A stretch of 64,000 bases of DNA from Carcharhinus amblyrhynchos (taxonomy: Eukaryota), in NCBI GenBank assembly GCA_965287045.1, contig OZ336878.1, positions 33,418,001 to 33,482,000 of the forward strand, in the 5' to 3' direction. A program made the position numbers and the translations under genes. This document shows, in pieces, positions 18,995 through 47,771 of the stretch. The notes beneath the pieces were generated by a model, which was given only the letters and a program-made list of their open reading frames with translations, was not told the DNA's origin and made no database searches. How positions within the stretch are numbered: position 1 is the stretch's first letter; each line of letters begins with the position of its first letter.

Positions 18995-19275
18995 CTTGCT
19001 TCCTGAACTTTACTTTCATTGCCTCTGCATTCAAAATCCACAATGTAACCGAGGGAACAGTTGATTGTTGAAAAGTTTGGATTGCAGACGTCTAGAAAGT
19101 GTGGCCTTAAACGGCCGACAGACACTTTTGCAATGTCAGTGAAGGACTGGCTAATGGCACAGCCAAAGATGAAGCATCCGACTTGTTTATACAAAGCTGC
19201 TACATATGGGTTGCGAATAAAGGATTTGGAACGCTCCTTCATGTAATGGATCCGGTAGCACTCTCCTGATATTAT
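18995..19275 (-). CDS. PLPP3: PLPP3 coding exon 3, [93 protein letters not shown](R)
   Basis: PAP2 catalytic motif C1 (K-x6-RP: KVSVGRLRP) and LPP3-diagnostic [14 protein letters not shown]. Acceptor aacAG and donor GTAGGA. 281 bp, phase 0 to 2. Confidence 0.97.
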
Positions 19276-44520: not shown

Positions 44521-44956
44521 CTATCTAAGGCAGGATCATTTCTGGTATAAAAGGAGCAAATCATGGGGTAGCAGGTTTTGCTTTCATTATCTTGCTAGTT
44601 GAACACATTTACCATTTTGGAGGTTGGTGCACCTTTTACCGGATTTTAGGTGAAATTCAGGAAAATCTGACATCCCATCTCCGTATGCCACCACTATGCC
44701 TTTCTTTGCACCAAAAGAATGAGGAATTCCAGGCTTTCGGTATAAATCTAATTATATCACTAGAAATTTTGGCTAGAAGAAATAATTTTACAATTCTGTG
44801 CTTCCTGTTGAAACCTTTTGGTGTAATGTTCACCGGTTTCGAAATGGCATTATGAAGGATGTAGACTTTGTGAAGGAATTCTGCAGATTTATGGCTTGCT
44901 TTCAGCTAGCAGACATAAAGGCACAATTGATTTGATCAAAGTGATTGGAGACTTAC

Positions 44957-45114
44957 AGACAGGATGGTGATTAGAATACCAGCAGCAGAAAGCACAGCAT
45001 CACTGATTGTTTCTCCATTCTTATAGGGATACTTGATGCTTTCGTCATTGCAGTAAAATCCACGCTTATAAGGTTTGATGGTGCTAGTTTCGATAACCAG
45101 GAAAGGGAGGCCAG
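44957..45114 (-). CDS. PLPP3: PLPP3 canonical coding exon 2, (A)[52 protein letters not shown] (end of TM1, extracellular loop 1, TM2)
   Basis: Close match to remembered human LPP3 [42 protein letters not shown]. Acceptor ttctattAG and donor GTAAGT. 158 bp, phase 1 to 0. Confidence 0.97.
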
Positions 45115-46142
45115 CTAATAGAAAGGACGACAACAGACACAGACAAAGCAAGAGTAAGTAACAGAGACGACAAACAGCTTAGGGGCACAACTGCTTCAAC
45201 AGAGTAAAATGTGGCATTGCAAGAAAAAATTCCATTCACTAATTCCAAGGTTCCCCTTCCCATCCCATTTACTCTTCCAAACCTCATGGTGCACTCATAA
45301 ATCGTGCATTATAGATGGTAGAAATTGTTAGAATTACCCCCAAAATGCCTGTTGTTTCACTTGTACGATGGGATGATCAAGCCACCTAAAGTTTGATGCT
45401 CAAAAAAAAGATTAATTCATACATTTTTATTTGCACACTATTTGTAAAACATTTTTAATGGCAAAAATATGCATGAAGTCAATTATTAGTAATTTCAGTA
45501 GAATTTATTCTGTTTAGATTGTAATGAGACTAGTTTGTCACATGTTTAGTTGTGGATTGAAGATTCCCTGCTGATGGGAATTAATATGTAAACAGAGGGA
45601 AATCCTTCAATAGTAATTGTCTTGTAATTAGTATTGTAACTAATCACACAGATTTACAAAGGCTGTAAGTGCATGAGCAGACCTGACACCTCAATTAATC
45701 CTCTAATCCCTAATAACTCTTTGAAACACTTGCATAATTCTTCATTTCTTCACTTCATTTGATCCCCACCTCATTTTTTTGACACTTCCTTTTCACTAGC
45801 TATTTTATACATTTCTTTTTCGCTCCACTTGTTTTTTTAAATATAGAACTCTGCTTAATGATGTACATATGACAGGAAAGGGCTTTGCCCTTTCATGGGA
45901 CATGGGTTAAACCCTGATATGAAGATGATATAAGCCTCCCCTTATCCCTTTCTGTGCCTTTCAGAACAGTGAGATCACTGTGGAGTCCAAAAGGCATTGC
46001 TGGTGTTGGAAGCTAAAAATATTCCTCTGATGCCATAATAAACACACTTTTGAGATTGGGGTTCCCAAATATTTTTTGTGTGCATGTGATTGTTAAAACT
46101 AAATTGTGTTTTTGATTTCCTCAGGAGGAAATCACAGAAACT

Positions 46143-46465
46143 GGCTGGTACAGTGGCGCAGTGGTTAGCACTGCTGCCTCACAGCTCCAGGGACCTGGGT
46201 TCAATTCCAGCCTTGGGTGACTATGTGTATGGAGTTTGCATGTTTGCGCAGTGTCTCCCACAGTCCAAAAATGTGCAGGTTAGGTGGACTGGCTAGGTTA
46301 AATTGCCCCTTGTTGTCCAAAAATGTGCAGATTAAATGGATCAGGCATGGTAAATGTGTGGGGTTACAGGATTAAGGCAGGGGGACAGGACCTGAGTAGG
46401 ATATTCTGTCAGAGGGTCGGTATAGACTCAATTGGGCCGAATGGCCTCTGTAGGGATTCTATGAA
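46143..46465 (+). mobile_element. HE1/V-SINE (tail type a) in the intron between the two exon-2 variants
   Basis: gcagtggttagcactgctgcctcacagctccagggacctgggttcaattcc...gggccgaatggcctctgtagggattctatga. Confidence 0.9.
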
Positions 46466-46656
46466 ATTACTGAATAACATATAGACTTCCAGGGATTAGG
46501 CTTGACCACCATCTCAAGTTGTTCAACTAAAAGAACCTCCGTGATGCTCGTTAAAATATATGGAGCACAGTCCACTGAACTGCCAAGATTCGGAGCATCC
46601 ATCAAGAAAAGAATGACTGTCAAGAAGCGCCACATTTCACTTTGTCTTGGCTTGGC

Positions 46657-46662
46657 CATGCA
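46657..46662 (-). promoter_or_regulatory. RBFOX-type splicing element UGCAUG at +20 of the intron after the alternative exon 2
   Basis: Minus strand reads GTAAGTTTATATCTGCTGG-TGCATG from the donor. Function is inferred from position only. Confidence 0.45.
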
Positions 46663-46681
46663 CCAGCAGATATAAACTTAC

Positions 46682-46836
46682 ACAAGCAATTGGCAGTAGT
46701 GTTCCCACTGCTAAGAGCAGGAGATTGGGTACCACACTTTTCTTATAGCTGTACTTGATGCTGTCGTCATCGCAGTAAAACCCTCTTTGATAGGGAGAGA
46801 TGCCTGCAACATTTATAACTGCAGCTGGAAGAATAA
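46682..46836 (-). CDS. PLPP3: Putative alternative (mutually exclusive) exon 2 of PLPP3, encoding (V)ILPAAVINVAGISPYQRGFYCDDDSIKYSYKKSVVPNLLLLAVGTLLPIAC
   Basis: Acceptor ...tctgttcAG (CT at 46837-38 on +) and donor GTAAGT (acttac at 46676-81). 155 bp, phase 1 start and phase 0 end as in the canonical exon 2, no stops. Shares the PYxRGFYCxDxSIKYxYK motif with the canonical exon. Confidence 0.82.
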
Positions 46837-47771
46837 CTGAACAGATAAAGAAATAAACGTGAGTGTTACAAATCTGCTGATCAGATTCCAAACCAACAGA
46901 GAGACCCATCCAGGTTGGATCTGTAACTACGACATGGTTTGATTTTGTTTTAAATTAAAAGTTGCAATATTATACCTTGCGGCAAAGCAATGAATTCCAT
47001 GGCTGACAATGAATTAGGTTAATTTAACCTAATGCAGGAGACAGCACATAATAAAGGCCCAGCATCACCAGCATTTTTTGTTACAAATTTGTACTGCACA
47101 ATTAACCCACTTGGCGGGATAATGCCACTGCTGTGAAGTAACACTGTCACAGCATTCAATACCAATAACCATGGTAATAGGCTGTTCCACAAATCAAGTG
47201 AATGTCCTTTCCAAGGAAGGATTGTATGATGCTGCTGTGCCTTTTCCACAAATATTCCCGTTACGCATCCACTGCTTTTCCCATATTACCAATCATCCAT
47301 CCCTGTTGTAGATTGTCCAGCAGGCTTTGTAAAAACAACAGGCATTGCCACTGTTCCACCCAAAAAAAAACTTTATAACCAATAAAATGCTGAATCATGA
47401 TGTTTTGCTGTAGGTGTTACACATTTAAACCATTGTATGTCAACCAGCAAGACAGAGTGAACACAATTAAACCTGATCATAGTAATGGCAAAATGCAGCA
47501 GAACAGTATTTATGTCTGATTGCCTACAGTTCATTAAACTTTTACAAATCGGAACTAAATTCCAAAGGCAATCACACTCGAGTCTTCTGTACAATGATAT
47601 CAATAGTGCAAATGTGCCTTTCTAAAAAACTTTGAAGGCTTCAAATATTAACAATCTAACCAAAGCAAACATAATTTTTCTGAAGTAGTATGCAAATTTA
47701 TTGTTCCTTTTCAGGACATTGTTTACAGTCATGCAATGGGTAATCTAAAATGCTCCAAATGTACATTAACC

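What the first reader, a model, noticed from the sequence alone, without database searches (positions are those of the whole stretch)
44957..46836. Tandemly duplicated, probably mutually exclusive exon 2 in PLPP3: an LPP1a-like isoform of LPP3
Seen: two homologous exons 1567 bp apart (155 and 158 bp), both AG/GTAAGT-bounded, both phase 1 to 0 and both open. They share PYxRGFYCxDxSIKYxYK but differ strongly in the flanking transmembrane segments, so the duplication is old and the frame has been preserved. Including both exons or neither shifts the frame, so only one-of-two splicing is productive. Established, from memory: mammalian PLPP1 has alternative exon-2 isoforms (LPP1/LPP1a), and I know of no equivalent for mammalian PLPP3. 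The extra exon aligns without gaps to the remembered 52-aa LPP1a segment (ASMPMAV...IYPFQRGFFCKDNSINYPYHDSTV...LVGVGLPISS), including P.AV and VG..LPI. Inference: the exon pair predates the PLPP1/PLPP3 gene duplication, was kept in shark PLPP3 and lost in mammals. It would swap the end of TM1, extracellular loop 1 and TM2 while keeping the catalytic motifs.
Basis: partly seen in the sequence, partly recalled or inferred. Interest (0 to 1): 0.9.

Follow-up and report, generated by a model that had tools for sequence, protein, structure and literature searches.

The report
Ancient swappable exon in shark PLPP3
This shark gene for a lipid-signal-degrading enzyme (PLPP3) holds two alternative versions of one exon, and public transcript assemblies carry one or the other; the pair likely predates the gene's split from PLPP1 and was likely lost in reptiles, birds and mammals, but it is already in gene databases and was noted for bony fish in 2015.

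Summary
Exons A (155 nt) and B (158 nt) are intact and phase 1 to 0. Including both or neither gives a premature stop. Contigs of 4 of 4 runs laid (recorded as RNA by guess) cover each exon edge to edge; in 3 they are 214/217-nt pieces, as a one-of-two splice would give. Exon A is 51/51 identical in 8 of 13 cartilaginous-fish proteins compared and occurs in PLPP3 of gar, teleosts, coelacanth, frogs and salamanders, but in 0 of 105 named amniote proteins. This genome's PLPP1 has the same pair in the same order; PLPP2 and a PLPP3-like gene have only B. Exon trees split A from B across genes (98/96 to 100/96). Independent duplication is rejected in 4 of 5 AU tests. So the pair is likely older than the PLPP1/PLPP3 split, and A was likely lost near the amniote stem, not only in mammals. 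It is not new: RefSeq annotates it as isoform X2, and a 2015 supplement notes the pair in PPAP2B of bony fish. Its function is untested. The scan's notes held nothing on this gene.

The parts
46682..46836 (-). Exon 2A of PLPP3 (155 nt, phase 1 to 0), the LPP1a-like alternative exon; encodes the end of TM1, extracellular loop 1 and most of TM2
   Evidence: Sequence; contigs in 4 of 4 runs cover 46678-46837; identical to the segment in NCBI PLPP3 isoform X2 of 8 sharks
44957..45114 (-). Exon 2B of PLPP3 (158 nt, phase 1 to 0), the canonical exon matching mammalian PLPP3
   Evidence: Sequence; contigs cover 44953-45115 in 4 of 4 runs; identical to the segment of isoform X1 P0418
45115..46681 (-). 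1567-nt GT-AG intron between the two alternative exons
   Evidence: Sequence; essentially no contig cover outside the repeat
46153..46470 (.). High-copy repeat (likely a SINE) inside the A-B intron; not part of the mechanism as far as tested
   Evidence: Thousands of unrelated contigs pile up here in all 4 runs
46657..46662 (-). TGCATG at intron position +20 after exon A, a candidate RBFOX site (motif recalled; single hexamer, weak)
   Evidence: not seen at the same place in PLPP1; conservation not testable here
18995..19275 (-). Exon 3 (281 nt), common downstream exon with catalytic motif C1
16843..16900 (-). Exon 4 (58 nt) with catalytic motif C2 (SGH)

Best explanation
Shark PLPP3 has two interchangeable second exons, A and B, each of which alone keeps the reading frame and appears spliced in transcript assemblies, and the pair likely arose once, before PLPP1 and PLPP3 separated. 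SHOWN: exon anatomy and frame logic; both exons in assembled transcripts; A kept from chimaera to frogs; the same pair, order and A length in PLPP1; B only in this genome's PLPP2 and PLPP3-like genes. INFERRED: an exon duplication in the vertebrate ancestor left A near the old form while B diverged. Whole-genome duplication copied the pair into four genes; A was dropped from PLPP2 and PLPP3-like, and from PLPP3 near the amniote stem. Exclusivity is likely kept by regulated splice-site choice plus nonsense-mediated decay of the both/neither products. PREDICTED: isoform A folds as a normal six-helix enzyme with all catalytic motifs and the tetramer contacts of loop 1. It changes the residues lining the acyl-chain cleft (F51, E55, D85, I93), so it would tune lipid preference or trafficking, as LPP1a is reported to do for PLPP1.
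For: Frame test. Contigs of 214 = 155+30+29 and 217 = 158+30+29 nt in runs X3, X6 and X8 (three studies) are the sizes of a 31-mer graph bubble with shared flanks. The single mismatch at each 3' edge fits exon 3 beginning ATAA where the intron has GTAA. Callorhinchus NP_001279689.1/AFK11233.1 carries A. Exon A has 51/51 identity in 8 of 13 cartilaginous-fish proteins, at least as high as exons 1 and 3 in 12 of 13. Own-genome PLPP1 has 155-nt A upstream of 152-nt B, like human. Whole intron 1 of PLPP2 (91 kb) and PLPP3-like (45 kb) has no A. Trees: A versus B 98/96 with cyclostomes, 100/96 without; B clade including lamprey 96/80 with outgroups. AU rejects 3A+3B (p 0.033), 1A+1B (0.007) and the gene-wise split (0.014, 0.012). 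Amniotes: 105 of 105 named proteins are B; no PPAP2B/PLPP3 row in two human mutually-exclusive-exon catalogues. Model of isoform A: pLDDT 90.3, rmsd 1.2-1.3 A to human LPP1. Structure papers place Y62, Y67, C68, N69, E71, Y75, K78 at the tetramer contact and F51, I93 in the cleft; five of six PLPP1 tunnel residues come from this exon. In A exons Y62, C68, Y75 and K78 are largely kept while F51 is never F in 21 of 21.
Against: The flanking letters of the contigs were not shown, so exon1-A and A-exon3 junctions are inferred from lengths. The runs are RNA only by the tool's guess, and 17 of 32 joints were not displayed, so a rare A-B join is not excluded. The trees rest on 52 columns. One AU test did not reject the gene-wise split (p 0.113, hagfish forced with PLPP1/2). 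Raw identity is close: 3A-1A 28/51, but 1A-3B 27/51. No amniote genome was searched; the absence rests on annotated proteins, and lungfish, caecilians, sturgeons and several rays also gave only B. For function: F51A did not change phosphate release by human PLPP3, and the authors conclude the cleft does not set specificity. Human LPP3 (B type) and LPP1a (A type) are both described as good S1P phosphatases, so exon type alone does not predict substrate.
Confidence: 0.87

Rival explanations
1. The exon pairs of PLPP1 and PLPP3 arose by two independent duplications in early jawed vertebrates, and the A exons resemble each other because both stayed near the ancestral sequence or converged.
For: With outgroups, 1A and 3A are not joined. 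Identity 1A-3B (27/51) nearly equals 1A-3A (28/51). One AU test gives p 0.113.
Against: 1B, 2B, 3B, PLPP3-like and lamprey exons form one clade apart from both A sets (96/80). Four of five AU tests reject grouping by gene. Order and 155-nt length are the same in both genes. Shared A states sit at positions 55, 81 and 96.
Confidence: 0.08
2. Exon A mainly serves to regulate PLPP3 amount through unproductive A+B or skipped transcripts, and its protein differs little in function from B.
For: Both/neither products have premature stops. F51A was neutral in human PLPP3. Amniotes appear to do without A.
Against: Protein-level conservation of A is near total among sharks, and A-specific residues are kept over the whole jawed-vertebrate range. 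Assemblies show A between shared flanks, not joined to B. This rival disputes only the functional step.
Confidence: 0.12
3. Exon A is a dead or unspliced duplicate, or an assembly artefact.
For: None found.
Against: A is open and splice-competent, is covered edge to edge in 4 of 4 runs, and is present in 107 of 159 named non-amniote PLPP3 proteins retrieved (the searches were seeded with A forms).
Confidence: 0.01

Closest known systems
PLPP1 (PPAP2A) LPP1/LPP1a mutually exclusive exon pair
   Same: Same exon position, phase 1 to 0, order (155-nt A upstream) and homologous sequence; present in human and in this genome.
   Different: The host gene is PLPP3; B is 158 nt rather than 152; spacing is 1.6 kb versus about 13 kb (this genome's PLPP1) and about 15.5 kb (human). 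PLPP1 keeps the pair in mammals; PLPP3 apparently does not.
PPAP2B exon pair noted by Abascal et al. 2015 (PMC4494069, supplementary table row 68)
   Same: [quoted passage not shown] This is the same pair.
   Different: One comment cell only: PPAP2 and PLPP do not occur in the main text. That row gives no sharks, amphibians, tree, loss date or structure mapping.
RefSeq PLPP3 isoforms X1/X2 of sharks, fish and amphibians
   Same: X2 carries exon A and X1 exon B; the window's exons match P0002 and P0418 exactly in this region.
   Different: Database models without comment on origin or function.

Membership tests
Mutually exclusive homologous exons (tandem exon duplication) | Neighbouring homologous exons of similar length | tested here: met
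   155/158 nt, 24 of 51 residues identical, E 9e-12
Mutually exclusive homologous exons (tandem exon duplication) | Same phases and compatible splice sites; each alone keeps the frame | tested here: met
   AG/GTAAGT, phase 1 to 0; A or B open, both or neither stop
Mutually exclusive homologous exons (tandem exon duplication) | Each exon is spliced into transcripts between the same flanking exons | tested here: met
   214/217-nt contigs in 3 of 4 runs, both exons covered in 4 of 4 (flank identity inferred from lengths); 305/306-aa isoform pairs in NCBI
Mutually exclusive homologous exons (tandem exon duplication) | The two exons are not joined to each other in stable mRNA | tested here: inconclusive
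   No A-B joint among 15 shown of 32; contigs drop rare forms
PLPP1-3 lipid phosphate phosphatases (PAP2) | Six transmembrane helices and catalytic motifs C1, C2, C3 | tested here: met
   Motifs in exons 3, 4 and 5; isoform A model superposes on human LPP1; best PDB sequence hit human PLPP3, E 1.9e-141
PLPP1-3 lipid phosphate phosphatases (PAP2) | Phosphatase activity of the exon-A isoform | not testable with these tools
   Needs an assay
Orthologue of the LPP1a exon | Groups with PLPP1 exon A rather than with PLPP3 exon B | tested here: met
   98/96 and 100/96 in unrooted trees; 4 of 5 AU tests reject grouping by gene; unresolved as a rooted clade
RNA-structure-driven mutually exclusive splicing (docking/selector type) | Intronic pairings stronger than chance near the exons | tested here: not met
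   Of 12 flank pairs the best p was 0.033 uncorrected; A-downstream with B-upstream p 0.115; conservation not testable

The most novel reading that the evidence does not exclude
Fish and amphibians make an unstudied second LPP3 enzyme ('LPP3a') whose swapped exon relines the lipid-chain cleft while keeping the tetramer contacts. It would give tissue-switched LPA/S1P breakdown and mixed A/B tetramers, and amniotes lost it in one step at their stem. Zebrafish and Xenopus work on plpp3 would then be mixing two enzymes.
Probability: 0.35. Interest if true: 0.55.

Novelty: already known. Interest (0 to 1): 0.3.

Why it matters
PLPP3 controls LPA and S1P signals in vessels and development. An old second isoform in zebrafish and Xenopus affects how plpp3 experiments there are read. 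It also gives a natural exon-swap pair for asking why LPP1a differs from LPP1, now that structures place this exon at the lipid cleft and the tetramer contact. As evolution, it is a tidy case of one exon pair kept in two gene copies and lost in two. The existence of the pair is not new; the amphibian retention, the likely amniote loss, the tree and the structure mapping were not found in print by my 8 paper searches.

Tried and rejected
RNA secondary structure as the cause of exclusivity: a 17-nt inverted repeat linking the start and end of the A-B intron and a 14-nt one around A were seen, but duplex energies were not beyond shuffles after 12 tests. Steric hindrance is unlikely: the intron is 1567 nt and B's AG-free zone is only 61 nt. 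Both exons have ordinary GT-AG sites, so spliceosome incompatibility is not indicated. The first fold, on 28 close sequences, failed (pLDDT 48.8) and was replaced by a 113-sequence alignment. No run was on record as RNA; 4 of 24 listed runs were laid. Contig depths were not used to rank isoforms. dN/dS was not computed because no other species' DNA for the exon was on hand. No complex was folded, since a pass would mostly reflect the solved tetramers. The primary LPP1a paper (PMID 18755152) is not held; it is cited only through review passages. Paper searches found no main-text description of a PLPP3 exon-2 isoform. Subscription journals, bioRxiv supplements and file 1 of PMC4494069 were not searchable and may hold more. 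The scan's earlier findings had nothing on this gene.

Full report
Observation. On the minus strand, exon A (46836-46682, 155 nt) and exon B (45114-44957, 158 nt) are each flanked by AG and GTAAGT, open in phase 1 to 0, and 1567 nt apart. No further copy was found in the window or 40 kb upstream. Exon 1 (127 coding nt) lies 23 kb beyond the window end, exons 3 and 4 are at 19275-18995 and 16900-16843, and exon 5 lies about 26 kb before the window start; the last exon was not located. The exons match NCBI houndshark PLPP3 models P0002 and P0418 almost exactly, and the best PDB sequence match is human PLPP3. Spliced in silico, A alone or B alone is open. Both together stop inside B, and neither stops inside exon 3; both stops lie upstream of later junctions, so decay is expected from general knowledge.

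Expression. Of 24 runs listed, none is on record as RNA and 18 are guessed to be; I laid 4 from 4 studies. In 4 of 4, contigs cover A (46678-46837) and B (44953-45115) and leave the introns essentially empty apart from a repeat. In 3 of 4 the contigs are 214 and 217 nt, which equals exon length plus 30 and 29 shared letters, the form of a one-of-two bubble in a 31-mer graph (graph behaviour recalled). The four-base overhang with one mismatch fits exon 3 starting ATAA against the intron's GTAA. In X1, B sits inside an 1807-nt contig and A in a 183-nt one. The flank letters were not printed, and 17 of 32 joints were hidden; none of the 15 shown joins A to B. A Callorhinchus record with an NP_ accession (transcript-based by convention, recalled) carries A.

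Conservation and range. Against P0002, exon A is 51/51 identical in 8 of 13 cartilaginous-fish proteins, 50/51 in 2, 49/51 in 1, 45/51 in a skate and 44/51 in Callorhinchus; exon 1 is 34-38/42 and exon 3 is 81-90/93. Of 280 PLPP3 proteins retrieved (top 120 of 1321 and of 1356 hits, plus listed cluster members), profile scoring gave: named amniotes 105 of 105 B; named non-amniotes 107 A, 48 B, 3 both, 1 none; unnamed 14 B, 2 A. The queries were A forms, so these are not frequencies. A occurs in gar, bowfin, many teleosts including zebrafish, coelacanth, salamanders and frogs including Xenopus. The three 'both' proteins are hypothetical teleost models with A before B. Lungfish, three caecilians, sturgeons, paddlefish and several rays gave only B, so annotated absence is not proof of loss. 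For human, the searchable supplements of two exon catalogues list PLPP1 but not PLPP3 (PMC8373072; PMC5740500). I infer loss near the amniote stem; no amniote genome was searched.

Paralogues. A genome-wide search with A found 6 matches in 6 candidates. PLPP1 on C1 has a 155-nt A upstream of a 152-nt B, as in human. PLPP2 on C26 and a PLPP3-like gene on C33 have only B across the whole of intron 1, 91 and 45 kb, bounded by probable first exons (E 0.0035 and 0.3, each ending at a GT donor).

Trees. With 49 exon peptides and 52 columns, 3A, 1A and one hagfish sequence stand against all B exons at 98/96; without the 3 cyclostome rows the split is 100/96, with an unsettled bootstrap. AU tests reject 3A+3B (p 0.033), 1A+1B (0.007) and the gene-wise split (0.014; 0.012 without cyclostomes), but not the gene-wise split with hagfish on the PLPP1/2 side (0.113). 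With 13 unnamed invertebrate-like outgroups (1 of 14 dropped on a parsing failure), the B exons, two lamprey exons and one long outgroup row form a clade at 96/80, while the A exons are unresolved. The firm reading is that B arose once, before the gene duplications and probably before the lamprey split, and that A keeps the older form. Identity margins are small.

Mechanism. The isoform-A model (113 sequences) has pLDDT 90.3 and matches human LPP1 at rmsd 1.2-1.3 A. In the human PLPP3 structure, loop-1 residues Y62, Y67, N69, E71, Y75 and K78 contact the next subunit, C68 forms a disulfide, and F51 and I93 line the acyl cleft (PMC13500480, first part of Results and passages read). In PLPP1, tunnel residues F24, T28, Y56, I64 and I68 fall in this exon (PMC13745504, Results parts 1-2 read). 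Across 15 PLPP3 A exons, Y/F62, Y/F67 and C68 are kept in 15, Y75 in 14 and K78 in 13, whereas F51 becomes A/S in 13 and is never F, E55 becomes N/H, D85 changes in all, and a proline enters TM2 in 11. So the swap would keep assembly and catalysis and reline the cleft. Against a large effect: F51A was neutral in human PLPP3, and a review names both LPP3 (B) and LPP1a (A) as the better S1P phosphatases (PMC7564803, passages). I put the chance that A changes substrate preference or trafficking at about one half. No RNA-structure basis for exclusivity passed a shuffle test.

What is known. The supplement of Abascal et al. [quoted passage not shown] RefSeq annotates the shark isoform as X2. Passages of PMC12902810, PMC12442299 and PMC8093947 held nothing relevant. 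Eight paper searches found no main-text account of the PLPP3 isoform (listings only unless named above).

Verdict. It is already in databases and in a supplement. The added value is the range (amphibians yes, amniotes apparently no), the tree and the structure mapping. Interest 0.3.

Noticed in passing
G000:C33:11985468-12047430 (L006, L008, L021-L026, L037): A fourth PLPP1-3-type gene, PLPP3-like, with a single 158-nt B-type exon 2; it has no obvious counterpart among the three human genes.
   Followed up: partly
protein P0023 (Myxine glutinosa PLPP3-like): A hagfish protein with an A-type exon-2 segment, while two lamprey genes sampled are B-type; whether cyclostomes have both in one gene is open.
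   Followed up: partly
window 46153-46470: High-copy, transcribed-looking repeat (likely a SINE) in the intron between the two exons.
   Followed up: no
window 46657-46662 (minus strand): TGCATG 20 nt after exon A, a possible RBFOX enhancer; a UG-rich tract precedes exon B.
   Followed up: partly
window 45199-45215 with 46629-46645; 45344-45357 with 47333-47346: Inverted repeats that could bridge the A-B intron or loop out A; the first was not beyond shuffles, the second lay outside the tested 200-nt flanks.
   Followed up: partly
proteins P0198, P0263, P0274, P0288, P0237, P0253, P0302, P0165, P0415, P0420: Lungfish, caecilians, sturgeons, paddlefish and some rays show only the B form: either repeated losses of A or gaps in annotation.
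   Followed up: no
L011-L016 (G000 C9, C33, C5, C26, C17): Six weaker matches to exon 3, probably more distant PAP2-family genes.
   Followed up: no
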